A DNA stretch of 39,890 nucleotides from Candidatus Sumerlaeota bacterium (GTDB lineage: Bacteria; Sumerlaeota; Sumerlaeia; SLMS01): NCBI GenBank assembly GCA_020850785.1, contig JADZDZ010000073.1:1-39890 (forward strand). Direction: 5' to 3'. Numbering within the stretch: the stretch's first letter is position 1; each line of letters starts with the position of its first letter. Below, in pieces: positions 1 through 12,068 of the stretch. The translations under genes and the position numbers were made by a program. Below the pieces are notes generated by a model, which saw nothing but the letters and a program-made list of their open reading frames with translations, had not been told where the DNA came from and did not search any database.

Positions 1-2153
1 AAGGTGTCCGACCGGGCGCGATCGTAGCGGTCGTAGGCCTCCTTGAAGCGCTTCACAATTTCATCGTCCTTCAGTTCATCGTTAAGCACAAGGTCCTTGT
101 AGCGGTTGTCGCGCACGTTCAGGCTGAAGAGCTGCAGGTAGTCATACCAGCGCTGACGTTCCGCGAGCAGGCGTTCAAGGTCGCCCCGGATGCCCGTGGG
201 GAACGGGCCCGTCGGCTGTTGGTTGAAGGCTTCCAGAAGGTTCTTCTTCTTCTCCTCGCGAAGCTGCGCGATTTCTGTCGCGGCCATCTTCGATAACCCG
301 AAGCGGGGATCGCCCTCTGCGGACAAGATGCCTTCCAGCTTCTGGATCACCTGATCGTAGAACTTGATCTTGTTTTGGTCGGGGTTGGCCTTAAAGTCCG
401 CCAGCAGACCAAGGTATTCGTTGTACAGCGTTGAAACCTTGTCCAGCGTGGTCAGTCGGCGATTCACGTCGTCGCGGCCCGTATAATCCACCGCGACCGC
501 GTTGCGCAACTTGCGAACCTCCTCGATGCTCTGGCCGTCGAAATCGTAATAGGCCTTCAGCAACTGCGCGTGCGCGCGGGCCGATTCCACCTTCGCCATG
601 TACTTGGCGATGTCGTTCTTCAACTGCTCGTCATTGGCGGTCTTCGCATTCATGCGATCAATGACAGCAGTCAGATCATCCGCCGTCTGCACGTAGGTGG
701 TGTTCATGTCCTTCATCGCGGCGTTGTAGGCATTGAGCAGCTCCTGCTTCGCCTTGATGCGATTTTCCGCCGCAGGAAGGATCGTGGAGGCGTTTTCAAA
801 CGCATCCTCCGAGGCCTTCTCGCTGGTCTGCTTCAGGATGGCGATCTTGCGAAGCGCCTCATCCCAGTTCTCCGCCGCTTCCGCGCGTTCGTAGTCGTTC
901 TTCGCGGCGGAAACAGCCTCGCGGAAACGACGTTGCACGTCGCGTTGCACGTCCGTGGCGCGATTGCCGATCTGCGACGTGTTGAAATCGAGGGTCTTCG
1001 CTGCGATATACGCACCAATGTAGTCACGCGCGTCGAGGCGCTCCTTCGTGGCGCGCAGCTTCTGCAGGTCTTCCTGCAACGCGCGAATTTCGCCCGCCTG
1101 GCCTTCTGGCGGATTCTTCGACAGGCGAATCAAGACATCATTTGCATCCTCGTAACGACGCTGCGTGACGAAATCGAGCGCCATCGCGGTGTCCACACCG
1201 GCTCCTGCCTTGCTGCCCGATCCGGAAGAACCGCCGGTCGTTGAGGCACCGCCGGTGTTGCTGGCTGTGCCCATCGCCTTCGGCCCGATGTAGCCCATCT
1301 TGTATGCGAAATAGCCGCCCACGCCCACCACCACCAGCACCAGCATGATGATGACGAAGCGCGCCGCCGTGGCCGCGCCCGATTCCTTCGCGTTGGAAAT
1401 ATCAGGCCAATCAACGAAGTGGAACGTGAAGCTGGAATCGCCAATATCGATCTGATCGCCGTCCTTGATGAATGCCTTGCCGATGCGGCGGCCATTCAAC
1501 TGGGTGCCGGAATCCTGCGACATGTTCTTAAGTTGGATCTTCTGGCCCTTCAGGAAGCGGATTTCCGCATGGACGGGTGAGGCGGTGCTGTCGATCACCC
1601 GGATGTCCACCTCGCCTGCGTCGGTTCCAATCAGGACCGCATCCTTCTCGATGCCAAACTTCACGGCATTCGTCACGGAACGCAGCTCCAGATACGCGTA
1701 GGCGCGCTTGTTGGATCGCATCTCCTGCACCCCGCCACCGCCGCCCGCGAATCCTGCGGCTGCGGGACGGGGTTCGGACTTCTGGCTTGCTTCCTTGAAC
1801 ATCGCCGCGATGTCGGGATTGTTCAGGTCCACCGCGAGGGTTTCGTTGCCAGACTGCGCCGCCTTCTTCACGTGGAACTTCACCGCCACATAGCCAAAGT
1901 GAAGCGTCGTGCCATCCTTCAGTTGAACCGGCTTGTTCGGCTCGATCGGCTTCTCATTCACGAAGGTTTTGTTCTTCGCGCCCAAGTCCTCCACGTACCA
2001 ATCGTCGCCCTCGCGCTTCAGCGTCGCGTGGTTGCGCGAAATGCTTTGGTCATCAATCTGGATGTCGTTTTCAGGAACACGGCCAACGGAGTTCGTGTCC
2101 TTCGTCAGTTCAAATCGTTTGCCGCTGGCCAGCAATATGTAGGCGTCGCTCAT
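1..2153 (-). CDS. Tandem-FHA single-pass membrane protein with a long helical extracytoplasmic region (partial; 3' end runs off the window)
   Basis: Absent from the ORF track because it has no stop codon inside the window. My own minus-strand translation starts at ATG 2153 (GAAGGAAG 4 nt upstream, 12 nt after the stop of the preceding gene) and stays open for 717 codons to position 1. It reads MSDAYILLASGKRFELTKDTNSVGRVPENDIQIDDQSISRNHATLKREGDDWYVEDLGAKNKTFVNEKPI (FHA signature GR..SxxH..N). A second FHA-like module follows: AVLIGTDAGEVDIRVIDSTASPVHAEIRF..SGTQLNGRRI. Next is a hydrophobic helix, FVIIMLVLVVVGVGGYFAY (nt ~1299..1364), and then >400 aa of helical, Lys/Glu/Ala-rich sequence. Confidence 0.8.
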   Translation of the reverse strand, partial: MSDAYILLASGKRFELTKDTNSVGRVPENDIQIDDQSISRNHATLKREGDDWYVEDLGAKNKTFVNEKPIEPNKPVQLKDGTTLHFGYVAVKFHVKKAAQSGNETLAVDLNNPDIAAMFKEASQKSEPRPAAAGFAGGGGGVQEMRSNKRAYAYLELRSVTNAVKFGIEKDAVLIGTDAGEVDIRVIDSTASPVHAEIRFLKGQKIQLKNMSQDSGTQLNGRRIGKAFIKDGDQIDIGDSSFTFHFVDWPDISNAKESGAATAARFVIIMLVLVVVGVGGYFAYKMGYIGPKAMGTASNTGGASTTGGSSGSGSKAGAGVDTAMALDFVTQRRYEDANDVLIRLSKNPPEGQAGEIRALQEDLQKLRATKERLDARDYIGAYIAAKTLDFNTSQIGNRATDVQRDVQRRFREAVSAAKNDYERAEAAENWDEALRKIAILKQTSEKASEDAFENASTILPAAENRIKAKQELLNAYNAAMKDMNTTYVQTADDLTAVIDRMNAKTANDEQLKNDIAKYMAKVESARAHAQLLKAYYDFDGQSIEEVRKLRNAVAVDYTGRDDVNRRLTTLDKVSTLYNEYLGLLADFKANPDQNKIKFYDQVIQKLEGILSAEGDPRFGLSKMAATEIAQLREEKKKNLLEAFNQQPTGPFPTGIRGDLERLLAERQRWYDYLQLFSLNVRDNRYKDLVLNDELKDDEIVKRFKEAYDRYDRARSDT

Positions 2154-2165
2154 GAATCTTCCTTC

Positions 2166-3896
2166 TCAGCGGTCGCTGATGATGTTTTTGGCGGTCTGCT
2201 CTCGTACAAGGTGGCTGTAGACGAACCACTCATCGAGGAACACGAATTCCTCCGGTTCCATTCCAAGAGTGGCAAATTGGTAAAGCTCGTCGTTCTTCTT
2301 CTGGGCGCCCTTCCAGTCGCGGTTGTCGCGCAGGCGTTCAATTTCCTTCCAGCTCTGCATGAAGAAGCCCGACTCGCTCTGGCAGTAGTCGTAGATTTTT
2401 TCCGCCTTGGAGAAAATGCGCAGGTAATCGTCATCAAATGCCCACTTGTCCGCGACCTGCAGCAGGCAGAGTGCGCGATGGTAGCGATTGAAGGCGCGGA
2501 AGAAGTTCCACTTATCCTTGTAGTAGTCCAACTCCGCCATCTTGTACGTCATCAGGTCCGGAATCAGTTTGTCCGCTTCCTTCTCCAGATCCAACGCATT
2601 TGCAATCAATGCCTCGTTGTCTTCCTTGCGCTTGGGCGGTGCCATGTTCTGCTTTTCCACCAGCATGCGAATGGCCTCATCTACGCGATCCGCCTGGAAC
2701 GCGTAGTCGCGCGCCGTGAAGATCGCGAGCGATTCCCCCTTCTTCTCCTGCCGCATCATGTAGTGCATGTATGGCTGGTCGCCGATGTTCATGGTGAAGT
2801 CGGCCCATTGCTGGTTGTTGTCGAACTTGGTCCACTTTGCGCGGTCAACCAGCGCGCCGAGCATCTTGGAGATGCGCGGCTTCGAGGCGAAACGCATGTC
2901 CGGCGATTTCAGGTCAAGGCTGACGACCTGAATCGGCGCGGAGGTGGGAAGACTGTCCCAGACTTCGATATAGAAATCGAAGTGGATTGGCGCTTTTTCC
3001 CCCAGCTTGGCGTCATAGCCCGCGCTCTTGCCAATCAGGCCGGGAGGGGTTTCGTTATACAATTGATCGTTGTCGTAGGAAACCCAGCTGACGTAGTAGT
3101 TGCCGAGCACCAAGGGCTGCTCTCCCTTGATGAGACGTCCGTTGCCAAGACGTGGGTTGTAGTTCGACCAGTTGCGGTTGCGGTAAACCAGATTTGAGAA
3201 GGGGTCCGGTGGCAGCACACTCGCTGTTGCAAGCTCGCTGCGGTCCTGATAACCGCCCTTCTTCGCGCCGGGGCGCACGGCGGACTGGAAGCTGTAGAAA
3301 TAAGGACGTGGTGCGGGGGCATCCTTGTCCTTCGGAATGTAGTTGTTCGTCGGCCTGTCGGAAAAATCGCCGGGAACGGGGAGGTTCACCTGCGGCAGGC
3401 CGCGAAAGCCAAGTGTCTTGATGCCGCGCAGCGTGTTGATCACCACCGGCGTCTGCTGCTTCTGCTTTTCCTTTTGGTAGTTCACGCCGTAGTAGACGAA
3501 AATCAGGAGGAGGACGAGGCTTGACGCCACGAGGAGCAGCGCGCCCTTGCGGCGTCCCGTGCGGACGGACTGCTGCATGTCCAGCGGCGCGGAGGCGTTG
3601 CGAATGGTGACCTCTATCGTGGTGTCGCCAATGCCAATGCGATCGCCCTGGGAAAGCAGCGCCTTCGTCACCGAATTGCCGTTGTGCTGCACCTTGTTGA
3701 TGCTGCCGAGGTCCACCACCTGCGCGGTTTCGTTACCAATTTCCAACCGTGCGTGTTTGTTGGAGACGGTGGGATCGTTCAGGCGGATGTGGCATTCCTG
3801 ATCGCGACCAATGATCGTGGTCGCGCCCGAGACCCGGAAGATGCGGCCCTTGTCCGGGCCGCCGATCACTTCAAGTTCAAGTTGTATGTCTGGCAT
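2166..3896 (-). CDS. FHA-domain single-pass membrane protein with a ~430-aa extracytoplasmic domain of unknown family
   Basis: 576-aa ORF. The N-terminus IIGRDQECHIRLNDPTVSNKHARLE..DLGSINKVQHNGNSV carries the FHA signature (GR, SxxH, N). One hydrophobic helix, GALLLVASSLVLLLIFVYYGV (aa ~118-138). The ATG lies 21 nt after the tadC stop. I recognise no family in the remainder; the last ~150 aa look like helical repeats. Confidence 0.85.
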   Translation of the reverse strand: MPDIQLELEVIGGPDKGRIFRVSGATTIIGRDQECHIRLNDPTVSNKHARLEIGNETAQVVDLGSINKVQHNGNSVTKALLSQGDRIGIGDTTIEVTIRNASAPLDMQQSVRTGRRKGALLLVASSLVLLLIFVYYGVNYQKEKQKQQTPVVINTLRGIKTLGFRGLPQVNLPVPGDFSDRPTNNYIPKDKDAPAPRPYFYSFQSAVRPGAKKGGYQDRSELATASVLPPDPFSNLVYRNRNWSNYNPRLGNGRLIKGEQPLVLGNYYVSWVSYDNDQLYNETPPGLIGKSAGYDAKLGEKAPIHFDFYIEVWDSLPTSAPIQVVSLDLKSPDMRFASKPRISKMLGALVDRAKWTKFDNNQQWADFTMNIGDQPYMHYMMRQEKKGESLAIFTARDYAFQADRVDEAIRMLVEKQNMAPPKRKEDNEALIANALDLEKEADKLIPDLMTYKMAELDYYKDKWNFFRAFNRYHRALCLLQVADKWAFDDDYLRIFSKAEKIYDYCQSESGFFMQSWKEIERLRDNRDWKGAQKKNDELYQFATLGMEPEEFVFLDEWFVYSHLVREQTAKNIISDR

Positions 3897-3917: not shown

Positions 3918-4823
3918 TTATTTGACTTTCCGGAATGCCTGAATCATCATGGGGCCGATCAGCACGAGGAAGATCGACGGGAAGATGAACAGGATCATTG
4001 GAATCAGCATCTGGGTTGGCGCTTTGTTGGCTTTTTCCTCCGCCACCTGAATTCGGCGGAAGCGCATGATTTCACCCTGCATGCGCATCACTTTTCCGAG
4101 CGGCGTTCCCAGTTCCTCCTGCTGGATCAGCGCCGTCACGAACGAGCGCATTTCCATCAGGTCCGAGCGGTCCGCCAGTTCGAGAAGGGCCTTCTTGCGC
4201 GAGCGACCGAGTTGGAGCTGCTTGAAGAAGCGCTTCATTTCCTGCTGCAGTGGTCCCTTCGTCATCAACTCGGACGCGCGGTCGATGGCCATGGTGAACT
4301 CCATGCCCGCCTCCACCAGCAGCGTCATCAGGTCGAGGAAATAGGGCATCGCGCAGAAGATCGCCCAGCGGCGCTCATTCGTGATCTGGTTCAGGTAATA
4401 GAATGGCGCGATGAAAAGGACGCCGCCAAGGAACAGGCTGAACAGGACGATGTAGTTGCGATCCACGTTCGGCAGCAGCACCACCAGCGACATGGGCAGC
4501 GCGATGCCGATGATGAACAGAACGATGTGCGACCCCACGTATTCCTTCGGGGTGAACTTGTCATCAAGGCCGGAGCGATTCAGGTTCCGTTCCGCCCACT
4601 TCAGGTAATTTCCCAGGGGAAGTGACTGAACGACGTCCGTCAGTTTCCCCATTTTGCGTGCCAGAGGGAGCATCAGCGCGAACACGCCAACGTAGCCAAG
4701 GTCCGACTGCTGGAACTCCTCGCCGATGTCGCGGAAAAGCCATGCGATGAAGAACGCAAACGCCGCAAAAGCCACGGCGGCAACCGCCGCAAGCATGTTG
4801 GGATTTTGTATGAACTCAGTCAT
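3918..4823 (-). CDS. tadC: Tad pilus inner-membrane platform protein TadC (T2SSF/GspF-type)
   Basis: 301 aa. It has an N-terminal TM segment, a central soluble helical domain (..RSFVTALIQQEELGTPLGKVMRMQGEIMR..) and a C-terminal TM (PTQMLIPMILFIFPSIFLVLIGP), which is the T2SSF layout. It is the second of two such paralogues directly after cpaF. Confidence 0.85.
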   Translation of the reverse strand: MTEFIQNPNMLAAVAAVAFAAFAFFIAWLFRDIGEEFQQSDLGYVGVFALMLPLARKMGKLTDVVQSLPLGNYLKWAERNLNRSGLDDKFTPKEYVGSHIVLFIIGIALPMSLVVLLPNVDRNYIVLFSLFLGGVLFIAPFYYLNQITNERRWAIFCAMPYFLDLMTLLVEAGMEFTMAIDRASELMTKGPLQQEMKRFFKQLQLGRSRKKALLELADRSDLMEMRSFVTALIQQEELGTPLGKVMRMQGEIMRFRRIQVAEEKANKAPTQMLIPMILFIFPSIFLVLIGPMMIQAFRKVK

Positions 4824-4859: not shown

Positions 4860-5753
4860 TCACAGCTTGATGTCCACGATCTTGTTGATGACGTAGTAAC
4901 CAATCGCGTCCAGAACGATCACCATCACCAGAATGACGAAGCCCGCCGTCGTCGTGAACAACTGCGCCGGCAGGTTGGGATCGATGAAGAAGAGTATCAG
5001 CATCAACGCGAAGGGGGCGCTTGTCAGAATCAGGGACTGCGTCTTGCCTTCGGCGGTCAGCGTCTCGATGCGGCGCTCAACGCGGAAGCGCTCCTGCACC
5101 ATCAGCACGGTTTTCTCGCAGACCTCGATGATGCCCTCTCCCATGGAGAAGATCGTGTTGATCGAGGCCACGAAGAGGTGAAGGTCCTGCACGGGGATGC
5201 GCTTTGTGAGGTTCTCCAGCGCGCGCTCCAGCGAAAGGCCCAGGGAGACTTCCTGCACCACGAGGCGGAACTCGCCCGCGAGCGGGTCCTGCGACTCGTT
5301 CACCATCAACTTGATCGCGTCGATGAAGGACAGGTTTGCCTTCACGGAGTTTGAAAGAATCTGGAGCCCGTCGATCATCTGCAGCCGGAACTTGTAGATG
5401 CGGCTGGCGTATGCGCGCTTGATGATGATGTCGGGGATGAAAAAGCAGGGCACGGAGAGAAAGATGATCGGAATGAACTGCGCCTGCATGTTCGGGAGGC
5501 CGATGCCCACGAGGAAACCGACTGCGGCGCCGAAGCCCATGCACGCCAGCTTCAGCGTCATGATGAAGGTGGCCGGCATGTAGATGAACATTTCGCCGAG
5601 GGTCGCCTCGCTGGCGCCCGCGAAGCGCTTTGAATAGGCCTCGCTGCCCGCCGCCATTGCGGAGGTGAGCGTGAAGCCGCAAAGCCCCACGCTAAGCGAC
5701 GCCATGATCAGATACGTCACAAGCCATGCATTGGTGGTTGGCAATTGCATCAT
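4860..5753 (-). CDS. tadB: Tad pilus inner-membrane platform protein TadB (T2SSF/GspF-type)
   Basis: 297 aa with the same T2SSF architecture: N-terminal TMs, a soluble domain (..LERALENLTKRIP..SMGEGIIEVCEKT..) and C-terminal TMs. It starts 6 nt after the cpaF stop. Confidence 0.85.
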   Translation of the reverse strand: MMQLPTTNAWLVTYLIMASLSVGLCGFTLTSAMAAGSEAYSKRFAGASEATLGEMFIYMPATFIMTLKLACMGFGAAVGFLVGIGLPNMQAQFIPIIFLSVPCFFIPDIIIKRAYASRIYKFRLQMIDGLQILSNSVKANLSFIDAIKLMVNESQDPLAGEFRLVVQEVSLGLSLERALENLTKRIPVQDLHLFVASINTIFSMGEGIIEVCEKTVLMVQERFRVERRIETLTAEGKTQSLILTSAPFALMLILFFIDPNLPAQLFTTTAGFVILVMVIVLDAIGYYVINKIVDIKL

Positions 5754-5758
5754 GATGG

Positions 5759-7831
5759 TCAGGTTCCCGCGTCCGTGGACGGCTGGAAGATTTCGAACGG
5801 CACTTCGCCGCCGCGTTCCTTGTGGATGCGCAGGAAATTGGGAATCGTGCCCACGGGGATGAAGTCACCCTTCATTCCGCCCTTTGCATCCAGCGTGTAT
5901 TCGAACTTGTAGATCGACTGCGTAACGTACTCGTTTCCGTCGAGGCCGAGCACTTCGACGATCTCCCCAATGCGGCGGCGCCCGTCGGGGAAACGCTCCA
6001 CGAACACAACAAGGTTCACCGCGCGCGCGATCTGTTCGCGAATTGCCAGCAGCGGCAGGTCAAGCCCCGCCATGAGGCACATCGTTTCAAGGCGCGTCAG
6101 CATGTCTCTGGCGCTGTTTGCGTGGCCTGTGGAGAGCGAGCCGTCGTGGCCCGTGTTCATGGCCTGAAGCATGTCGATCGCTTCGCCGGAGCGGATTTCG
6201 CCGACCACGATGCGGTCGGGGCGCATGCGCAGTGCGTTCTTCACAAGGTCGCGAATCGTCACAGAGGTCGCGCCTTCGGTGTTCGACGGCCTTGTTTCCA
6301 GCGAGATCACGTGCTGCTGCTGGAGTTGAAGTTCCGCAGAGTCCTCGATGGTCAGGATGCGTTCGTCGTCGGGAATGTAGGAGGAAATCACATTCAACAG
6401 CGTCGTCTTGCCGGAAGCCGTGCCGCCGGAGATGAAGATGTTCTGGCGCATTTTGACGGCAAGTTCCAAAAATTTTGCCATGCCGGGGCTGAACGAACCC
6501 TTGGACATCAGGTCCTTCGGTGTCAGCGGCTTTGCGGGAAACTTGCGGATCGTCAGCACGGGGCCAACCAGCGACACCGGCGGGATAATGGCATTCACGC
6601 GGGAGCCATCGGCGAGGCGCGCGTCCACCATCGGGCGTGCCTGATTGATGGGGCGTCCCAGCGGCGCCACGATGCGGTTGATGATCGTCAGCAGGCGTTC
6701 TTCGTCGATGAACTGCTTGTCTGTGCGGACGGTCTTGCCGCGCCGTGCGACGAAAATCTTCGACGGACCATTGACCATGATTTCCTCAATCTCATGATCT
6801 TCGAGGAAATCCTGAATGGGACCAAGGCCCAACGCCTCGTCCAGCACGTCCTTCAGAAGTTGCTTCGGCGACACATCGTGCTGAAGCGACCCGCTCTTCT
6901 GCAGGTCGTAAATAATCTGGTTCGTGATCGTGCGGGCGCGGTTCCACAATTCATCGTCAGCCATCTTGTCCGCGCTGACGGTCTTCAGGCGGATCTTCTC
7001 CACCAACTGCTCGTGGATCGCGGCGCGAAGCTTCGTGTAGGAATCCGAAGCCTCCATCCGCTTCTTTTTTCCGCTAACGAAGGGATTCTTGGCGCCCTGC
7101 ACGGCGCCCGCCTGAAGGGTCGCGCGGTTCAGTTCGACGGTCTTGCCGCTTTCCCCCTCCTGCCGGGGCTCACGCGGGGGGCGCGAAACTGTCGACGGCC
7201 CTCCACCGGAACCGGGAGGACGCGGCACCGCGCCTTTCTGCTGCTTCATGGATTCAAGTTGTTCGGGTGAATATTGCACCGTGGCATTGTCCGGCACTGT
7301 TGGCGCGCCGGGGCCTCCGCGCTGCCGCATCGCCTCAAGCTGTTCTGGTGAGTATTGAACCGTCGCATTGGAGGGCACCGGGTCGCCGGCACCCGCTGCG
7401 CCCGCGTTCTGCATGCGGCGCAAAACTTCCGGGCTGTATTCCATCGTGGCGCCCGCTTCCAGCGGACTTGATCCACCGGGAATTTGCATCGTCGCGCCGC
7501 CCATTGGCAGCCCTTCGTACTCATCGCCCATCGGCGGCGCTTCGTATTCAAGCAGCACATCGCCAATGATGATCTTGTCGCCGTCGGAAAGTTCGCGCGT
7601 GTCGGCCACCTTCTCCGCGTTCACGTAGATGCCGGTTTTGCTGCCCGCATCGCGGATCGAGTAGCCGCCGGGCCTGCGAATCAGGTGGGCATGCTGCTTG
7701 GAAACAGTGCCGCGCGCGATGACCATGTCGCAGTTCTCGTCGCGCCCGATTGTAATGATGTCCGCCGTGCAGTCGAACGAGGCATCGAAGGAGTTGTCGA
7801 AGGATTTTGCTCTTAAAACGGGAAAGGCCAC
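5759..7831 (-). CDS. cpaF: CpaF/TadA-family secretion ATPase fused to an N-terminal FHA domain through a repeat-containing Pro/Gly-rich linker
   Basis: 690 aa. The C-terminal ~400 aa form a T2SSE/VirB11-like ATPase: Walker A GGTASGKTT, Asp box ILTIEDSAEL, Walker B RPDRIVVGEIR, His box GHDGSLSTGHANS. aa 1-97 form the FHA domain (IGRDENCD..SKQHAHL..TGIYVNAEKV). GTG start with AGGA 8 nt upstream. Confidence 0.9.
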   Translation of the reverse strand: MAFPVLRAKSFDNSFDASFDCTADIITIGRDENCDMVIARGTVSKQHAHLIRRPGGYSIRDAGSKTGIYVNAEKVADTRELSDGDKIIIGDVLLEYEAPPMGDEYEGLPMGGATMQIPGGSSPLEAGATMEYSPEVLRRMQNAGAAGAGDPVPSNATVQYSPEQLEAMRQRGGPGAPTVPDNATVQYSPEQLESMKQQKGAVPRPPGSGGGPSTVSRPPREPRQEGESGKTVELNRATLQAGAVQGAKNPFVSGKKKRMEASDSYTKLRAAIHEQLVEKIRLKTVSADKMADDELWNRARTITNQIIYDLQKSGSLQHDVSPKQLLKDVLDEALGLGPIQDFLEDHEIEEIMVNGPSKIFVARRGKTVRTDKQFIDEERLLTIINRIVAPLGRPINQARPMVDARLADGSRVNAIIPPVSLVGPVLTIRKFPAKPLTPKDLMSKGSFSPGMAKFLELAVKMRQNIFISGGTASGKTTLLNVISSYIPDDERILTIEDSAELQLQQQHVISLETRPSNTEGATSVTIRDLVKNALRMRPDRIVVGEIRSGEAIDMLQAMNTGHDGSLSTGHANSARDMLTRLETMCLMAGLDLPLLAIREQIARAVNLVVFVERFPDGRRRIGEIVEVLGLDGNEYVTQSIYKFEYTLDAKGGMKGDFIPVGTIPNFLRIHKERGGEVPFEIFQPSTDAGT
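7244..7498 (-). repeat. In-frame tandem repeats in the cpaF linker (about 27 aa / 81 nt period), each carrying A-T-[MV]-[QE]-[YI]
   Basis: Protein copies are GATMQIPGGSSPLEA, GATMEYSPEVLRRMQ, NATVQYSPEQLEAMRQ and NATVQYSPEQLESMKQ. The two best copies are also visibly similar at nucleotide level (7246..7297 vs 7326..7378). All four Thr use ACG codons, at 7490-92, 7445-47, 7361-63 and 7280-82. Confidence 0.8.
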
Positions 7832-8056: not shown

Positions 8057-9907
8057 TTACTTGGCGCCCGTTCCGAACTTGTCTTCCGGTGCGGGTGTCA
8101 ACGCCGGCGGAGCAGGAATATCCTTCTCCCAGCCGAGGTAGTAACCCACCGAACCCTTGCGATACTGCGAATCGCGCTCGTAGTACTGGCGTGCGCGGTC
8201 GGCGTTGTCGCTGTGGCGCTTGCGGTTTGCTTCCGTCCAGATGTTCGGCGACGTCGGCGTCACGAAGATGAAGGAACGCACCTGCGTGCCCTGACGTGCC
8301 TGGAACTTGAAGAACAGGTTGATGATCGGAATCTTTCCGAGCAGCGGCATTTCGTTCTTCGTCGTGGAGAACAGGTTCGCGTTGCTGCCGGCGACGATGA
8401 TCGTCTGGCCGTCGCTCACTTCAACCACGCTGGACGTGTTCACATCCTTCAGCGAGAAGATTTCGTCGTCGCTGCTGGTCTGGTTGTTTGTCGTGGCCTT
8501 CGTGGAGGTCGTGATCTGGATGCGAATCTTGCCGTTTTCCAGAATGAACGGCGTCGCGCTGACCTGAACGCCCTGCTCGATGTTCGCCACGGAGGTCGTG
8601 TTTGCGCCCTCAAGGCTCACGAACGTGCTAAGGCCGTCCTTGAAGCTCGCCGTCTCGCCGCTGACCACCGAGAGGTGCGGGGCCTGATAGTGGACGACGT
8701 AGTCCTGCGTCTTGGTTGCTTCAATCTGCGCGAGAACGTTTCCACCCGGATCCCAGGTCACCAGCAATTCATCTTCGCCGTAGCCGGCGTTGTCCGTGCC
8801 GAAGTCAAGGCCCGTGCCTGCACGGCCCCCTGCGGCGCCCGGATAGTTGAACAGGTATTCGCGCGCGGCGTCATCACCGTGGCCGTTAAGGCGCTGCACG
8901 GCCTGCGCCGTGTAGAAGTTGCTGATGATGCCCGTCTGCGGGTCCGCCTGCTCGACTTCGCGGAGCAACTGGAAGTCGATCGAGTTGAGCTGGTTGTAGA
9001 TGTTCGTGCCGCGGCGGTCAGCCTTCGACATGTCAACGGTCACCAACACGACGTCCAGTTCGATGATCGGCTTCTGCAGTTGGATGTGGCTGATCACGTT
9101 CGGGAAATAGAGCTTCGCGATCTGTTCCGCTTCCGACTTCTCGCGGTCCGTTGTCGCGACGCCTGTCAGCCAGGCGCTGATTTCCTTCTCGTTGTTTTCC
9201 TTCAACTCTGCCTTGATCTGGCCGAAGTTGCGGGCATCGAAATCCTGACGCAGTTGCGCCAGCATCTTCTGCTGTTCGCTCTGCGTGATCTGCGATTCCA
9301 CGAGGTCAACCACGTTGAAATTCTTGATGATGGTCTGGTAACGCTGGTAGTCTGCCATCGAGACGATCGTGCCCTGAACGACGAGGAGGTCGCCGACCTG
9401 CGAGGCGCTCACGCCGACCACGTCGCTCAGAAGCTGGCGAAGGGTCTGCAGGTCCTTCGCGACGTCCTGGCTGGAGACGACGAAGCGAATCAGGCGAACC
9501 GAGCCGTCATTGAGCATTGCACGAAGGTCGGAGGTGCCCGCCGCCTTGGAATGCACAAGGATGCCGTTGCCGTCAGGGGACACGGTCGCCGTGATGACGT
9601 TCGTGTTGCTGACAGCGATGCGCCCAACGCCCTGAATGCCCAGATACTCGTCCTGGTCGACTTCCTTGCGCACCACGCGCTCCGGTTCCTGAAGCGTGGT
9701 CTGTGCTGCTGCTGCCGCCGGTGCCGGCGCTGCAGCCGTTGCCGCTGGTGCGGCGGGTGTCGGACGTGGTTCGTTGTCCGTTCTGGTGTTTGTAACGCCC
9801 TGTGCCGCTGGTGTCACTGGGGGGACACTGCCGACTTGGGCCAGCGCCGTGCCCCCGCCAACCATAGCGAGCGAGGCCACAAGTAATGCCTTGTATGCCT
9901 TTTTCAT
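8057..9907 (-). CDS. cpaC: Tad/Flp pilus outer-membrane secretin CpaC/RcpA
   Basis: 616 aa. Signal peptide MKKAYKALLVASLAMVGGGTALA, then an Ala/Pro-rich linker. The C-terminal secretin core is ..GQTIIVAGSNANLFSTTKNEMPLLGKIPIINLFFKFQARQGTQVRSFIFVTPT. Located between cpaB and cpaF. Confidence 0.9.
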   Translation of the reverse strand: MKKAYKALLVASLAMVGGGTALAQVGSVPPVTPAAQGVTNTRTDNEPRPTPAAPAATAAAPAPAAAAAQTTLQEPERVVRKEVDQDEYLGIQGVGRIAVSNTNVITATVSPDGNGILVHSKAAGTSDLRAMLNDGSVRLIRFVVSSQDVAKDLQTLRQLLSDVVGVSASQVGDLLVVQGTIVSMADYQRYQTIIKNFNVVDLVESQITQSEQQKMLAQLRQDFDARNFGQIKAELKENNEKEISAWLTGVATTDREKSEAEQIAKLYFPNVISHIQLQKPIIELDVVLVTVDMSKADRRGTNIYNQLNSIDFQLLREVEQADPQTGIISNFYTAQAVQRLNGHGDDAAREYLFNYPGAAGGRAGTGLDFGTDNAGYGEDELLVTWDPGGNVLAQIEATKTQDYVVHYQAPHLSVVSGETASFKDGLSTFVSLEGANTTSVANIEQGVQVSATPFILENGKIRIQITTSTKATTNNQTSSDDEIFSLKDVNTSSVVEVSDGQTIIVAGSNANLFSTTKNEMPLLGKIPIINLFFKFQARQGTQVRSFIFVTPTSPNIWTEANRKRHSDNADRARQYYERDSQYRKGSVGYYLGWEKDIPAPPALTPAPEDKFGTGAK

Positions 9908-9997: not shown

Positions 9998-10864
9998 CTA
10001 CCTCATCCGATCACTGCGCTCAGTCTGCAGACGCGACAACTCTGTCAGATTCAGCACATCCTGATAGGTCACTTCCGTGCGTGGACTGATCGTGCCCGGA
10101 TCGGTCTGCTTGCGAAGCAACAGCGTGAAGACCGCCGTGTCCGTCAGGTTGCCGCCTTCCCTCAGGCCGACGCGCATGGCGAAGGTGAGGATTTGCGCTT
10201 CCCGCGGCGTCACTGCGATGGTGATATTCTGCATTCCGCCGCTGCGGCGCGGGCGCGCCATGTTGATGCCCGGCGTTTCGACGAAGTCCTCGCCGATCGC
10301 CAGCACCTTCACATTTTCGAACATATAGACAGTGGTCGGGCGGTAGGAGAATTCCTCGATCGTCTGCGGCCCCTGATTGGGAACCGTGATCGTGCGCACC
10401 GTCTTGTCCGGAACCTGCAGCGTTGCGATGATGTCCACGCGATCGCCCACGCGCAGGAAGGAGGTCAGCGAGCCGCCCTTTTCGATGTCGATGCTGATGG
10501 CGCGCTCGCCGTCCTGCAGCTTCGTGTCAAAGGTGAATGTCTCCACATTGGAAACATTCTTTTCCACGCTCTGGTCCAGAAGCACGTCGTTGGGCTGCAT
10601 GTCTGCGGCCACGCGGCTTCCGACGTAGAGGCCCTTGTCCTGCGGGCGTGCAAGGCCGCGAATCTTTCCCGCCGTTGCCGCGTCGATGGTCGCTTCACCG
10701 ATGTCCTCAATGCGCAGCGCCTCGCCCTTCTTGCGCTCGGTCTTCAGCACCAGCACGGTCGTCATCTGCGTGCGCTGCTGCTGCGACTTCAAATACTGCT
10801 GAATTCCCAAAAACGCGAAGATACCAAAAACAACCGCGATAATGATCGGCACTTTCGTCTGCAT
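9998..10864 (-). CDS. cpaB: Flp pilus assembly protein CpaB/RcpC (membrane-anchored, SAF-like)
   Basis: 288 aa. N-terminal anchor VPIIIAVVFGIFAFLGI, then ..VLVLKTERKKGEALRIEDI.. (SAF-like) and a beta-rich C-terminal half. It occupies the canonical position between the prepilin peptidase and the secretin. Confidence 0.8.
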   Translation of the reverse strand: MQTKVPIIIAVVFGIFAFLGIQQYLKSQQQRTQMTTVLVLKTERKKGEALRIEDIGEATIDAATAGKIRGLARPQDKGLYVGSRVAADMQPNDVLLDQSVEKNVSNVETFTFDTKLQDGERAISIDIEKGGSLTSFLRVGDRVDIIATLQVPDKTVRTITVPNQGPQTIEEFSYRPTTVYMFENVKVLAIGEDFVETPGINMARPRRSGGMQNITIAVTPREAQILTFAMRVGLREGGNLTDTAVFTLLLRKQTDPGTISPRTEVTYQDVLNLTELSRLQTERSDRMR

Positions 10865-10878
10865 GGTGGTTCCTTAGG

Positions 10879-11388
10879 CTATTTGAATTTCTGGAGAAGA
10901 ACGATCAAAATCCCCAGACACATCGACGTTCCGAAAGGGATGCGCTGGGTCATCAGCCCCAGCACGCCAACCGGCTGCTTTCCAACTTCTGCATCCTGCG
11001 ATTTTCTCAACTGACGATTCCTGTAGCTTTTCCAGACGATGAACCCAAGCCCAATTATGCCTCCGATCATCAGAGCATAATAAAGGATTCGGAACGTATC
11101 TATAGTTCCCACAAGCGCCCCGATGGCCGCCGCCAGCTTCACATCCCCCCCACCCACGGAGGGACGGCCGCGGCTCCAGCCGGTGATCAGGTAGGGGATC
11201 ATGAAGCACCCCCCCGCGATCAGCGCCGCCTTCAGGGCGTCGATGAAATGGGCTTCCAAAAGGGCCAGAAACAACCCCAGCAGGAGCGCCGGGATCGTCA
11301 GCCAGTTGTAGATTTTGCCTTCCTTCAGTTCCGTATAGATGATCACCGGAACCATCAACAGAAGGATGATCGGTTGCAGTGGTGGCAA
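10879..11388 (-). CDS. cpaA: A24-family prepilin peptidase CpaA/TadV
   Basis: 169 aa polytopic membrane protein containing the GGGDVKL motif (second catalytic Asp box of A24 peptidases). Located between flp and cpaB. The start is uncertain: TTG at 11388, with an in-frame ATG 11 codons downstream. Confidence 0.8.
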   Translation of the reverse strand: MPPLQPIILLLMVPVIIYTELKEGKIYNWLTIPALLLGLFLALLEAHFIDALKAALIAGGCFMIPYLITGWSRGRPSVGGGDVKLAAAIGALVGTIDTFRILYYALMIGGIIGLGFIVWKSYRNRQLRKSQDAEVGKQPVGVLGLMTQRIPFGTSMCLGILIVLLQKFK

Positions 11389-11546: not shown

Positions 11547-11584
11547 AAAAAAAGAAAAGGCCGCATCGAGCGATCGATGCGGCC
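11547..11584 (-). terminator. Intrinsic terminator/attenuator after flp
   Basis: An 11-bp stem, GGCCGCATCGA (11559..11569) paired with TCGATGCGGCC (11574..11584), with a 4-nt loop. On the minus strand it is followed by TTTTCTTTTTTT (plus-strand A-run 11547..11558). It sits 17 nt after the flp TAA. Confidence 0.8.
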
Positions 11585-11600
11585 TTTTGGGAGGATAACC

Positions 11601-11876
11601 TTAGTTCAGGTTAACTTCTGTTTCGGCGGCTCCACTCTCGGTCTGGGCCATGTCCGGCTTGTCCGAGGTAAGCTTTCCTGTTTCAGCGATCTTCACCTTC
11701 TCAGTTGTCGTCGTGCTACCGCTGACCTTGTCAACCGACGTCTTGACCTGGCTGCGAAGCTGACCACCGAGGAGCATGAAGGCAAGGATGCCCGCAACGG
11801 CGATGAGCACGAGGATGATGACGTACTCCGTGGAGATGGCGCCCTTGCGGTTGTTGCGTGTGATGAGGTTCTTCAT
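11601..11876 (-). CDS. flp: Flp/Fap-family type IVb pilin
   Basis: MKNLITRNNRKG|AISTEYVIILVLIAVAGILAFMLLGG matches the Flp leader, the G/xxxxEY processing motif and the hydrophobic helix. I prefer ATG 11876 (GGAGAA 4 nt upstream) over the track's start at 11897. Confidence 0.85.
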   Translation of the reverse strand: MKNLITRNNRKGAISTEYVIILVLIAVAGILAFMLLGGQLRSQVKTSVDKVSGSTTTTEKVKIAETGKLTSDKPDMAQTESGAAETEVNLN

Positions 11877-12068
11877 GGTTTTCTCCTGATATTCCAAGTG
11901 GAAGAGTTTGCGAGATCAAAACCGGCGCCCGGCTTGGGTGCGCCGGTCAGCCTCTTGGGGTCCTAACAAGAACTGGATAACACCTAATCTTCGCCCCTCA
12001 AGGGCACCCACTGGGTGCAGTCCTGATTTTGGGGGTGGATTTTTCTGCTTTCCAGTTTCTGAACGTGA

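What the first reader, a model, noticed from the sequence alone, without database searches (positions are those of the whole stretch)
5759..7831. Secretion ATPase CpaF/TadA with an N-terminal FHA domain
Seen: one continuous 690-aa ORF joins an FHA module (aa 1-97: IGRDENCD..SKQHAHL..YVNAEKV) to a complete T2SSE ATPase core (Walker A GGTASGKTT, Walker B, Asp and His boxes) through a ~160-aa Pro/Gly/Ala-rich linker. Known: textbook CpaF/TadA proteins have a short N-terminal helical domain and depend on TadZ/CpaE for docking. Inference: the FHA module could recruit the hexameric motor to a phosphorylated partner, or auto-inhibit it. That would explain why no TadZ is present.
Basis: partly seen in the sequence, partly recalled or inferred. 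Interest (0 to 1): 0.65.

Follow-up and report, generated by a model that had tools for sequence, protein, structure and literature searches.

The report
FHA-fused CpaF motor, TadZ-less Tad locus
This gene is a real fusion of a phosphothreonine-reader (FHA) domain to the motor ATPase of a Tad pilus; the design is already published, but here it sits in one operon with extra FHA proteins and protein kinases, and across 87 loci the FHA fusion and the usual docking protein TadZ never occur together.

Summary
The ORF at 5759..7831 (minus strand, 690 aa) encodes FHA (aa 1-100), a Gly/Pro/Ala-rich disordered linker (101-262) and a complete CpaF/TadA ATPase. Four independent assemblies and diverged orthologues encode the same fusion, so it is not a frameshift artefact.

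The architecture is already published, as "class III CpaF" and as KilF of the Myxococcus Kil system. This is a new member, from Candidatus Sumerlaeota.

The surrounding operon is Flp, prepilin peptidase, CpaB, secretin, FHA-CpaF, TadB, TadC, an FHA-TM protein and a 2xFHA-TM protein. Past the window edge it continues with two transmembrane Ser/Thr kinases. There is no TadZ.

In my survey of 87 non-redundant cpaF loci, TadZ was present in 0 of 29 FHA-type loci and in 54 of 58 others. I did not find this exclusivity stated in the papers I could search.

The FHA domain keeps the phosphothreonine-binding Arg and Ser. The linker carries five T-[MV]-x-[IYL] motifs, where 0.23 are expected by chance.

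The most likely mechanism is kinase-controlled, FHA-mediated recruitment or licensing of the motor, in place of TadZ. That step is inferred, not shown.

The parts
5759..7831 (-). FHA-CpaF/TadA motor ATPase gene, 690 aa, GTG start (class III CpaF architecture)
   Evidence: ORF. Pfam FHA and T2SSE. Sequence match to the solved CpaF structures 8rkd/9e24 at E~1e-101. AF2 model with Foldseek TM 0.86 to CpaF 8rjf.
7532..7831 (-). FHA domain (aa 1-100). G29-R30, S44-x-x-H47 and N71 are conserved. The Asn of the usual S-T-N-G loop is Thr66.
   Evidence: Pfam E=2e-16. AF2 pLDDT above 90 with an all-beta fold. Invariant and near-invariant columns. Best solved FHA relatives are Rv1747 (6cah) and GarA.
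7046..7531 (-). Disordered Gly/Pro/Ala-rich linker (aa 101-262) carrying five T-[MV]-x-[IYL] motifs
   Evidence: AF2 pLDDT is below 50 over most of the linker. A short strand plus helix follows each of three repeats. Composition and motif statistics.
7481..7492 (-). Linker motif 1, T114-M-Q-I
7436..7447 (-). Linker motif 2, T129-M-E-Y
7352..7363 (-). Linker motif 3, T157-V-Q-Y (start of the repeat ATVQYSPEQLEAM)
   Evidence: Local pLDDT is about 79.
7271..7282 (-). Linker motif 4, T184-V-Q-Y (second copy of ATVQYSPEQLESM)
7130..7141 (-). Linker motif 5, T231-V-E-L
5762..7045 (-). CpaF core: three-helix bundle (aa 264-334), N-terminal domain (348-430) and ATPase domain (about 445-685), with Walker A 469-477, Walker B 491-500, Asp box 537-551 and His box 558-572
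4860..5753 (-). TadB/CpaG-like platform protein (T2SSF), 5 nt after cpaF
   Evidence: Pfam T2SSF E=1.7e-10
3918..4823 (-). TadC/CpaH-like platform protein (T2SSF)
   Evidence: Pfam T2SSF E=7.6e-19
2166..3896 (-). FHA-TM-periplasmic protein, 576 aa (FHA 1-100, TM 120-138). The layout resembles SctD/PrgH. The family is restricted to Sumerlaeota.
   Evidence: Pfam FHA E=1.5e-14. Weak NCBIfam match to SctD. TM segment. Only 4 full-length homologues in the 5.8-billion-cluster database.
3..2153 (-). 2xFHA-TM protein with a helical C-terminal domain (767 aa in full; its C-terminus runs off the window start). The architecture matches KilD.
   Evidence: Two Pfam FHA stretches. Full gene seen in L001. 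The same tandem-FHA-TM architecture follows kilF-type genes in L024, L030 and L054.
8057..9907 (-). Secretin (CpaC/RcpA-like), 616 aa
   Evidence: Pfam Secretin E=2.7e-23
9998..10864 (-). CpaB/RcpC
   Evidence: Pfam RcpC. NCBIfam pilus_cpaB at 96 bits, above its cut-off of 71.
10879..11388 (-). Prepilin peptidase (TadV/CpaA, Peptidase_A24)
   Evidence: Pfam E=2.3e-12
11601..11897 (-). Flp-type pilin (…NRKGAISTEYVIILVLIAV…)
   Evidence: Weak Pfam Flp_Fap match. Similar to Flp ORFs of other FHA-type loci.
11555..11588 (-). Strong hairpin plus T-run directly after the pilin gene (terminator or attenuator)
   Evidence: 15-bp stem with 8 GC pairs, followed by CTTTTTTT

Best explanation
The ORF encodes the single motor ATPase (CpaF/TadA) of a Tad/Flp-type pilus or secretion machine belonging to the FHA-type, TadZ-less branch. 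This is the branch that includes 'class III CpaF' and KilF of Myxococcus.

Shown:
- The protein is FHA, a roughly 160-aa disordered linker, then a three-helix bundle, N-terminal domain and ATPase domain. All catalytic boxes are intact.
- It lies in one tightly packed operon: Flp, TadV, CpaB, secretin, FHA-CpaF, TadB, TadC, a bitopic FHA protein and a bitopic 2xFHA (KilD-like) protein.
- In the orthologous contigs the operon continues with two bitopic Ser/Thr kinases.
- No TadZ is present.

Inferred mechanism:
- The receptor-type kinases respond to an envelope or contact signal.
- They phosphorylate threonines in cytoplasmic disordered segments. The five T-[MV]-x-[IYL] sites in the CpaF linker are the best candidates.
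- Four FHA domains per protomer set (one on CpaF, one on the 576-aa protein, two on the 767-aa protein) then cross-link the motor to membrane-anchored partners.
- This recruits and licenses the hexamer at the TadB/TadC platform. In canonical systems the ParA/MinD-like TadZ ring does that positioning and scaffolding job.
For: - Identity: Pfam; CpaF structures by sequence, E~1e-101, and by fold, TM 0.86.
- Context. Intergenic gaps from cpaF to the second kinase are 5-36 nt.
- Conservation: the whole operon, including both FHA-TM genes and the kinases, is kept in two further Sumerlaeota-like genomes whose CpaF is 53% and about 78% identical (L011; L092).
- Phosphothreonine-binding Arg30, Ser44 and His47 are conserved.
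- Linker motif: 5 copies against 0.23 expected, and 0 of 5000 shuffles reach 5. The motif is conserved in the nearest relatives and in L011 even though the rest of the linker is not.
- Both kinases have the catalytic Lys, HRD and DFG/DFS motifs.
- Survey of 87 loci: TadZ in 0/29 FHA-type against 54/58 other loci (p=4e-19); a kinase within 10 kb in 8/29 against 0/58; extra FHA genes in 12/29 against 2/58.
- Bdellovibrio-type ATPases carry TadZ fused at the same N-terminal position, and they group with the FHA-type ATPases in the tree.
- Precedents: KilF and KilD form prey-contact clusters in M. xanthus (PMC8460266). In Rv1747, a solved FHA relative found, FHA domains bind phosphothreonines in the protein's own disordered linker (this last point is from my own knowledge of the literature).
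Against: - No phosphorylation or binding data exist for any FHA-CpaF.
- The conserved Asn of the S-T-N-G loop is Thr66 in this clade.
- The linker motif is absent from 61 more distant FHA-CpaFs.
- About half of the FHA-CpaFs (beta/gamma-proteobacteria) lack the Arg and Ser and have no nearby kinase, yet also lack TadZ. TadZ replacement therefore cannot depend on phospho-binding in general.
- No PP2C phosphatase was seen in the visible 10 kb.
- TadZ could be encoded elsewhere in the genome.
- The exclusivity may reflect only one or a few ancestral events. The split between canonical and FHA-type/fused ATPases has 65% neighbour-joining bootstrap support.
Confidence: 0.55

Rival explanations
1. 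Cis auto-inhibition, as in GarA/OdhI. The FHA domain binds a phosphorylated threonine of its own linker and folds back. This switches the motor off (or on) without any role in docking.
For: FHA, a flexible linker and several TxxPhi sites lie on one chain. GarA is among the closest solved FHA relatives. AF2 gives locally ordered strand-plus-helix elements at three of the motifs.
Against: Three more FHA domains on two membrane proteins in the same operon argue for interactions in trans. The AF2 output gives no contacts, so cis docking could not be evaluated. The motif array is lineage-specific, whereas the FHA fusion is widespread.
Confidence: 0.2
2. Phospho-independent scaffold. The FHA fold is simply a protein-protein interaction module, for example contacting TadB/TadC, CpaB or neighbouring protomers. 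It replaced the TadZ ring structurally, and the kinases regulate something else.
For: All 29 FHA-type loci lack TadZ, including the roughly 13 whose FHA has lost the phosphothreonine-binding Arg and Ser and which have no extra FHA genes. Those loci are otherwise ordinary tad loci with TadE, TadG and TPR genes.
Against: In this protein and its clade the Arg, Ser and His are strictly kept. Kinases and FHA partners are co-operonic and conserved across three diverged genomes.
Confidence: 0.15
3. Coincidence. TadZ is encoded elsewhere in the genome, or is dispensable in this lineage for unrelated reasons, and the FHA domain only adds a regulatory input.
For: Only +-10 kb around each cpaF could be examined. 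Kil genes of M. xanthus are split between two clusters (PMC8460266). The FHA-type ATPases are mostly one phylogenetic group, so few independent events are needed.
Against: There were 0 of 29 against 54 of 58. In the others TadZ lies within 500 bp upstream on the same strand, or is fused. A Moraxella bovis plasmid carries an FHA-type tad locus with no TadZ annotated within the 9 kb flanks examined.
Confidence: 0.1
4. Artefact: two genes (an FHA protein and CpaF) joined by a sequencing or assembly frameshift.
For: None found.
Against: The identical ORF occurs in four independent assemblies. The same fusion is seen in orthologues down to about 43% identity and in about 100 of the 120 best clusters. 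GC3 is typical of coding sequence across the whole ORF.
Confidence: 0.01

Closest known systems
Class III CpaF (FHA-IDR-3HB-NTD-CAD), e.g. Achromobacter xylosoxidans E3HIW0; defined in PMC12019362 (Nat Commun 2025)
   Same: Same domain order. The CpaF core is 43% identical to the solved C. crescentus CpaF and has the same fold.
   Different: That paper reports class III mostly in betaproteobacteria. In my sample it also occurs in Sumerlaeota, Myxococcota, Verrucomicrobiota, Lentisphaerota, Kiritimatiellia, Planctomycetota and a spirochaete MAG. The proteobacterial members have a degenerate phosphothreonine pocket (K/S and G/A in place of R and S), whereas this one keeps it. The paper does not discuss TadZ/CpaE at all (0 occurrences).
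Kil system of Myxococcus xanthus (KilF = FHA-CpaF; KilD; MXAN_3104, MXAN_4648 and MXAN_4649 are FHA proteins), PMC8460266
   Same: An FHA-fused single ATPase and several FHA proteins. One of these is a PrgH/SctD-like FHA membrane protein. Another is a 2xFHA protein directly downstream of the ATPase, where KilD sits. No TadZ. No TadD or TadG seen here either.
   Different: Here all genes lie in one operon rather than two clusters. Two or three bona fide Ser/Thr kinases are inside the operon. The C-terminal domains of the FHA partners show no detectable sequence similarity to the myxobacterial ones. In the neighbour-joining tree this ATPase is not in the myxobacterial sub-clade. A role in prey killing is unknown.
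Canonical Tad/Cpa machines (A. actinomycetemcomitans tad, C. crescentus cpa) with TadZ/CpaE
   Same: Flp pilin, TadV, CpaB/RcpC, secretin, TadA, TadB and TadC in the usual order.
   Different: No TadZ/CpaE. In C. crescentus six CpaE dimers ring the CpaF hexamer (PMC13170226). In control loci TadZ lies directly upstream of cpaF.
Bdellovibrio TadZ-TadA fusion (TadZA), bioRxiv 10.64898/2026.07.08.737194
   Same: An accessory module is fused to the N-terminus of the Tad ATPase. These ATPases group with the FHA-type ones in my tree.
   Different: The fused module is the ParA/MinD-like TadZ, not FHA.
Threonine-phosphorylation pathway of the type VI secretion system (PpkA/PppA/Fha1) and M. tuberculosis Rv1747 (FHA domains plus a phosphorylated disordered linker)
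   Same: A membrane Ser/Thr kinase together with FHA proteins controls assembly or clustering of an envelope machine. Rv1747 FHA is the best solved match to this FHA domain.
   Different: The machine is different. No PP2C phosphatase was seen in the visible part of the operon. The analogy rests on established knowledge of those systems, not on a test made here.

Membership tests
CpaF/TadA secretion ATPase (Pfam T2SSE; PilT/VirB11-like) | Walker A, Walker B, Asp box and His box intact | tested here: met
   GGTASGKTT 469-477, RILTIEDSAE 491-500, Asp box 537-551, His box 558-572. These columns are invariant in 72 homologues.
CpaF/TadA secretion ATPase (Pfam T2SSE; PilT/VirB11-like) | Closer to CpaF than to other family members, with the 3HB-NTD-CAD fold | tested here: met
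   By sequence, CpaF chains score E~1e-101 against 7e-47 for the next family. Foldseek TM is 0.86 to 8rjf. AF2 helices at 264-334 form the three-helix bundle.
CpaF/TadA secretion ATPase (Pfam T2SSE; PilT/VirB11-like) | Encoded next to TadB/TadC, the secretin, CpaB, the prepilin peptidase and Flp | tested here: met
CpaF/TadA secretion ATPase (Pfam T2SSE; PilT/VirB11-like) | Hexameric ATPase that powers pilus extension and retraction | not testable with these tools
   Needs biochemistry or cryo-EM.
Class III CpaF (PMC12019362) | N-terminal FHA domain joined by a disordered region to the CpaF core | tested here: met
   Pfam FHA E=2e-16. AF2 gives FHA pLDDT above 90 and a linker mostly below 50.
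FHA domain (phosphothreonine reader) | Pfam PF00498 above the gathering score | tested here: met
   60.6 bits against 20.7
FHA domain (phosphothreonine reader) | Conserved pThr-contacting Arg (G-R) and Ser (S-x-x-H), plus the structural His | tested here: met
   R30, S44 and H47 are present. G29 and H47 are invariant, and R30 and S44 are at least 90% conserved.
FHA domain (phosphothreonine reader) | Asn of the S-T-N-G loop (beta6-beta7), which contacts the peptide backbone | tested here: not met
   The loop reads S-K-T-G. Thr66 replaces the Asn in this clade, while more distant FHA-CpaFs have STNG. N71 is kept.
FHA domain (phosphothreonine reader) | Binds phosphothreonine peptides | not testable with these tools
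   Needs ITC or a pull-down with pT114/129/157/184/231 peptides.
Canonical Tad locus | TadZ/CpaE (ParA/MinD-like ATPase with an atypical receiver domain) encoded with tadA | tested here: not met
   No hit in any frame of the window or of L001, L011 and L092. Controls L009 and L010 score 302 and 330 bits with the same profile.
Kil-type Tad-like system (M. xanthus) | FHA-fused ATPase plus several FHA-domain accessory proteins | tested here: met
   Three FHA proteins carrying four FHA domains
Kil-type Tad-like system (M. xanthus) | KilD orthologue (an FHA protein downstream of the ATPase) | tested here: inconclusive
   The architecture is the same, 2xFHA-TM followed by a helical C-terminal domain. 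The tandem FHA region aligns collinearly with the gene after kilF in L030 and L024. The C-terminal domains show no detectable similarity.
Kil-type Tad-like system (M. xanthus) | Assembles on prey contact and is needed for contact-dependent killing | not testable with these tools
   The phylum is uncultured and there are no functional data.
Kinase/phosphatase/FHA control module (as in the T6SS threonine-phosphorylation pathway) | Membrane Hanks-type Ser/Thr kinase in the operon | tested here: met
   Two kinases follow the FHA genes in L001, L002 and L003, and three in L092. NCBIfam PknB-like kinase-domain match at 276 bits (below the 450-bit full-length cut-off); HRD and DFG motifs present.
Kinase/phosphatase/FHA control module (as in the T6SS threonine-phosphorylation pathway) | Cognate PP2C phosphatase in the operon | tested here: not met
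   None among the called genes within 10 kb downstream. Sequence beyond that was not visible.

The most novel reading that the evidence does not exclude
FHA-type Tad machines form a second major design of the Tad family. In it, an FHA module on the motor takes over the positioning and scaffolding role of TadZ, together with KilD-like tandem-FHA membrane proteins where they are present. In the Sumerlaeota version this is a complete, self-contained, kinase-triggered circuit: receptor Ser/Thr kinases phosphorylate a multi-site TxxPhi array in the motor's linker, and multivalent FHA cross-linking follows. That would make assembly signal- or contact-dependent, as in Myxococcus Kil, and would hint at contact-dependent antagonism or predation in an uncultured phylum.
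Probability: 0.3. Interest if true: 0.7.

Novelty: new member of a known kind. Interest (0 to 1): 0.4.

Why it matters
The fusion is not new, so the finding as written is modest. Three things around it add value.

- The FHA fusion and TadZ were mutually exclusive in my sample (0/29 against 54/58). The papers I could search do not state this. TadZ/CpaE is described as a ubiquitous Tad component (PMC13170226).
- This operon encodes the ATPase, the FHA partners and the kinases together. The Kil papers postulate a signalling cascade but leave it unidentified; here it becomes directly testable.
- Five specific candidate phospho-acceptor threonines are named.

If confirmed, this would explain how Kil-like machines are recruited on demand without TadZ.

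Tried and rejected
- Frameshift or chimera artefact: rejected.
- AF2 of the 576-aa FHA-TM protein from a 4-sequence alignment: unusable, mean pLDDT 37.5. Its periplasmic fold and any SctD/PrgH-like ring motifs remain untested.
- Only 4 full-length homologues of that protein exist in the 5.8-billion-cluster database, so a deeper alignment is not available.
- tblastn of this protein and of a betaproteobacterial FHA-CpaF against 72,556 plasmids: no place covering 80% or more of the query. The FHA part is too diverged to be joined to the core match. The top hit (Moraxella bovis) nevertheless turned out to be FHA-type by Pfam.
- Sequence similarity between the C-terminal domains of the 2xFHA proteins of different phyla: none detected.
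- Promoter scan of the 225-bp gap upstream of cpaF: no more hits than in shuffled sequence.
- The AF2 output gives no coordinates or contacts. I therefore could not tell whether the ordered linker motifs dock on the FHA domain, on each other or on the core.
- No PP2C phosphatase was found.
- Literature searches combining forkhead-associated/FHA with CpaF, CpaE, TadZ or TadA found no paper that links the FHA fusion to the absence of TadZ. The library misses many subscription-journal papers.
- A whole-genome check for TadZ was not possible.
Full report
**1. Observation**

The window has one uninterrupted ORF at 5759..7831 on the minus strand. It is 690 aa, starts with GTG, and has an AGGA element about 8 nt upstream. 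Its third-position GC (0.76) matches the other genes of the window.

Pfam finds FHA at aa 26-90 (E=2e-16, 60.6 bits against a cut-off of 20.7). It finds T2SSE at aa 334-609 (E=7e-60).
- G-R at 29-30
- S-x-x-H at 44-47
- Walker A at 469-477
- Walker B at 491-500
- Asp box at 537-551
- His box at 558-572

The stretch between the domains (aa 98-262) is 38% Gly, Pro and Ala.

Four contigs from different samples encode the identical protein. Orthologues at 92, 80, 75 and about 53% identity keep the fusion. About 100 of the best 120 homologous clusters carry both Pfam domains. A frameshift or assembly artefact is therefore excluded.

**2. What the protein is**

The closest solved structures by sequence are CpaF of Caulobacter crescentus (8rkd, 8rjf, 9e24), with E about 1e-101 over aa 205/282-652. 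The next family, archaeal GspE/FlaI, scores 7e-47.

An AlphaFold2 model built from 72 homologues has mean pLDDT 80. It shows:
- a confident all-beta FHA domain at aa 1-100
- a linker at 103-255 that is mostly below pLDDT 50
- three long helices at 264-334, the three-helix bundle
- an N-terminal domain at 348-430
- the ATPase domain

Foldseek places the model on CpaF 8rjf with TM 0.86. This is exactly the "class III" CpaF architecture (FHA-IDR-3HB-NTD-CAD) described in PMC12019362. It is also the architecture of KilF, the ATPase of the Myxococcus xanthus Kil system (PMC8460266). The fusion is therefore real but already known. The nearest named relatives are from Candidatus Sumerlaeota.

**3. 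Surroundings**

On the minus strand the genes are, in order:

| Gene | Coordinates |
|---|---|
| Flp-type pilin | 11601-11897 |
| Prepilin peptidase | 10879-11388 |
| CpaB/RcpC | 9998-10864 |
| Secretin | 8057-9907 |
| FHA-CpaF | 5759-7831 |
| TadB | 4860-5753 |
| TadC | 3918-4823 |
| 576-aa FHA protein with one TM helix | 2166-3896 |
| Protein with two FHA domains, runs off the window start | 3-2153 |

A strong hairpin terminator follows the pilin gene.

An orthologous 73.6-kb contig of the same organism (L001) shows what the window cuts off. The 2xFHA protein is 767 aa with a TM helix at 260-278. It is followed by two 760-aa transmembrane Ser/Thr kinases. Both have the catalytic Lys, HRD and DFG/DFS motifs. 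Gaps between genes from cpaF to the second kinase are 5-36 nt.

The same gene order, including both FHA membrane proteins and the kinases, is kept in two more genomes. Their CpaF is 53% identical (L011) and about 78% identical (L092). L092 also has a third kinase and a second CpaF-like ATPase.

The rest of the window is housekeeping genes. No ParA/MinD-like TadZ/CpaE is found in any frame of the window or of these contigs.

**4. Survey of FHA fusion against TadZ**

A scan of one genome per GTDB species returned the 80 best cpaF loci with 10-kb flanks. I added six metagenomic and plasmid loci.

I translated all stop-to-stop ORFs and searched them with profiles I built and iterated here. The profiles covered FHA, TadZ, the kinase domain, the CpaF core, T2SSF, secretin, CpaB and the peptidase. 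The TadZ profile was seeded from two annotated control loci in which an "AAA family ATPase" sits directly upstream of cpaF.

After removing duplicates of the window organism, 87 loci remain:

| Feature within +-10 kb | FHA-type loci | Other loci | Fisher p |
|---|---|---|---|
| TadZ-like ORF scoring at least 100 bits | 0/29 | 54/58 | 4e-19 |
| Ser/Thr kinase | 8/29 | 0/58 | 7e-5 |
| Additional FHA genes | 12/29 | 2/58 | 2e-5 |

- In the non-FHA loci, TadZ lies within 500 bp upstream on the same strand in nearly all cases.
- Eight of those 54 are N-terminal TadZ-TadA fusions of the Bdellovibrio type.
- Of the four exceptions, one is cut at the locus edge. Three have only weak TadZ-like hits (28-50 bits), below the 100-bit threshold.
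- An independent all-against-all clustering gave the same picture. The TadZ cluster has members in 0 FHA-type and 49 other loci, and 9 further TadZ hits lie inside CpaF ORFs.
- Pfam confirmed FHA on representative proteobacterial, myxobacterial and Sumerlaeota ATPases.
- A cultured example is a Moraxella bovis plasmid. RefSeq annotation of its tad locus lists no TadZ, while its 576-aa ATPase has FHA at E=4e-13.

Caveats:
- Only +-10 kb was visible around each cpaF.
- The loci are not phylogenetically independent. In a neighbour-joining tree of the ATPase cores, the FHA-type and TadZ-fused ATPases fall on one side and the canonical ones on the other. That split has 65% bootstrap support (39 of 60 replicates). 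The FHA-type ATPases alone are not monophyletic.

**5. Two flavours of FHA-CpaF**

I aligned the 29 fused FHA domains.

- The phosphothreonine-contacting Arg and Ser are kept in 14: Sumerlaeota, Myxococcota, Verrucomicrobiota, Lentisphaerota and others.
- They are replaced (Arg by Lys or Ser; Ser by Gly or Ala) in the beta/gamma-proteobacterial group.
- That second group has no extra FHA genes, and its loci otherwise look like ordinary tad loci with TadE, TadG and TPR genes.
- Loss of TadZ therefore goes with the FHA module itself, not only with phospho-binding.

In the group that keeps Arg and Ser, a recurrent gene pair follows the platform genes. It consists of a 1xFHA-TM protein (about 530-650 aa) and a 2xFHA-TM protein (about 750-820 aa).
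- Both genes are seen in L001, L011, L044 and L064.
- The 2xFHA gene alone is seen in L005, L024, L030 and L054.
- In the myxobacterial loci L024 and L030 the 2xFHA gene sits directly after the kilF-type gene, which is the position of KilD.
- Its tandem FHA region aligns collinearly with the window's protein, and it has a clear TM helix. The C-terminal domains are not detectably similar.
- Supplementary file 1 of the Kil paper lists KilD as FHA+TPR and MXAN_4649 as a PrgH-like FHA protein. The 576-aa protein here gives a weak SctD match.

**6. The linker**

The linker contains five copies of T-[MV]-x-[IYL]: T114, T129, T157, T184 and T231. Five of its eight threonines lie in this motif.

- Shuffling gives 0.23 expected copies, and 0 of 5000 shuffles reach five.
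- The copies are conserved position by position in the three nearest orthologues. One to three copies occur in the next relatives and in L011, although the surrounding linker sequence is not conserved.
- The motif is absent from 61 more distant FHA-CpaF linkers (0 observed against 2.9 expected).
- AF2 predicts a short strand plus helix after three of the sites, with pLDDT up to about 79.
- pT-x-x-hydrophobic is a common FHA ligand type. That statement rests on established knowledge, not on a test made here.
- Among solved FHA domains, the closest to this one are Rv1747 and GarA. In both, an FHA domain binds phosphothreonines of the protein's own flexible segment (again from established knowledge).

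**7. Most likely mechanism**

Shown:
- the protein's identity and architecture
- an intact catalytic core
- a retained phosphothreonine pocket, except for one loop Asn
- an operon with four FHA domains and two kinases
- the absence of TadZ
- the family-wide exclusivity between the FHA fusion and TadZ

Inferred:
- The receptor kinases phosphorylate disordered cytoplasmic segments. The linker array is the best candidate.
- FHA domains on the motor and on the two bitopic partners then tie the hexamer to the membrane at the TadB/TadC platform. This would replace the TadZ ring seen around CpaF in Caulobacter (PMC13170226).
- KilD and KilF clustering at prey contacts in Myxococcus is the closest experimental precedent.

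I put this explanation at about 0.55. The rivals are:
- cis auto-inhibition in the manner of GarA (0.2)
- a phospho-independent scaffold role (0.15)
- TadZ simply encoded elsewhere (0.1)
- an artefact (0.01)

**8. Comparison and novelty**

The protein is a member of the CpaF/TadA family and of its class III architecture, with all testable features met. The locus fails the canonical Tad criterion of having TadZ.

It resembles the Kil system but differs in four ways:
- it is one operon rather than two clusters
- it contains real kinases
- the partner C-terminal domains are lineage-specific
- the ATPase lies in a different sub-clade

I therefore rate it a new member of a known kind. Two by-products were not found in the searchable literature:
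- the exclusivity between the FHA fusion and TadZ
- the kinase/FHA/multi-threonine circuit encoded in one operon

**9. What did not work**

- AF2 of the 576-aa partner failed (pLDDT 37.5).
- Plasmid tblastn did not join the FHA and core matches.
- No phosphatase was found.
- No whole-genome TadZ check was possible.
- The structure tool reports no contacts, so docking of the motifs could not be assessed.

Noticed in passing
window 11555-11588 (minus strand), just downstream of the Flp gene at 11601-11897: A 15-bp-stem GC-rich hairpin followed by a T-run sits directly after the pilin gene and before the peptidase gene. It looks like a terminator or attenuator that would give excess pilin transcript relative to the machinery genes.
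   Followed up: no
L092:18740-21716 (Sumerlaeota-like JGI contig), downstream of the operon: After the two kinases come a 277-aa protein with no Pfam hit, a third Ser/Thr kinase (482 aa) and a second CpaF-like T2SSE ATPase that runs off the locus end. The equivalent region of the window organism lies beyond the window start.
   Followed up: no
L015, L018, L022, L039, L040, L047, L071, L074 and others (beta/gamma-proteobacterial FHA-CpaF loci): The fused FHA domains have Lys or Ser in place of the phosphothreonine-binding Arg, and Gly or Ala in place of the Ser. They are probably phospho-independent. These loci have TadE, TadG and TPR genes but no extra FHA genes and no TadZ.
   Followed up: partly
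L031, L033, L038, L041, L045, L050, L053, L076: These are TadZ-TadA fusion ATPases of the Bdellovibrio type, with TadZ in the same ORF about 300 aa upstream of the core. Seven of the eight form a clade with 100% bootstrap support that groups with the FHA-type ATPases.
   Followed up: partly
L091 (Moraxella bovis plasmid NZ_CP087831.1), 13451-18001: An FHA-type tad locus on a plasmid of a cultured pathogen is followed immediately by a 1516-aa RHS repeat protein gene, which is typical of polymorphic toxins. This is reminiscent of a contact-dependent killing role.
   Followed up: no
P0006, P0007, P0012, P0015-P0022, P0025-P0027: These are CpaF-family proteins of about 690-1184 aa from Chloroflexota-like sources. 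They lack FHA but have very high bit scores over only about half of the query. They may be tandem or otherwise extended CpaF proteins.
   Followed up: no
window 7498-7550: A 27-bp unit occurs twice in tandem (84% match) inside the linker-coding region, around aa 94-111 (PMGDEYEGL / PMGGATMQI). The two ATVQYSPEQLE repeats lie 27 codons apart. The linker seems to have grown by short duplications.
   Followed up: no
window 2166-3896: The 576-aa FHA-TM protein has only four full-length homologues among 5.8 billion protein clusters, and the named ones are Sumerlaeota. Its 440-aa periplasmic part matches no Pfam family.
   Followed up: partly
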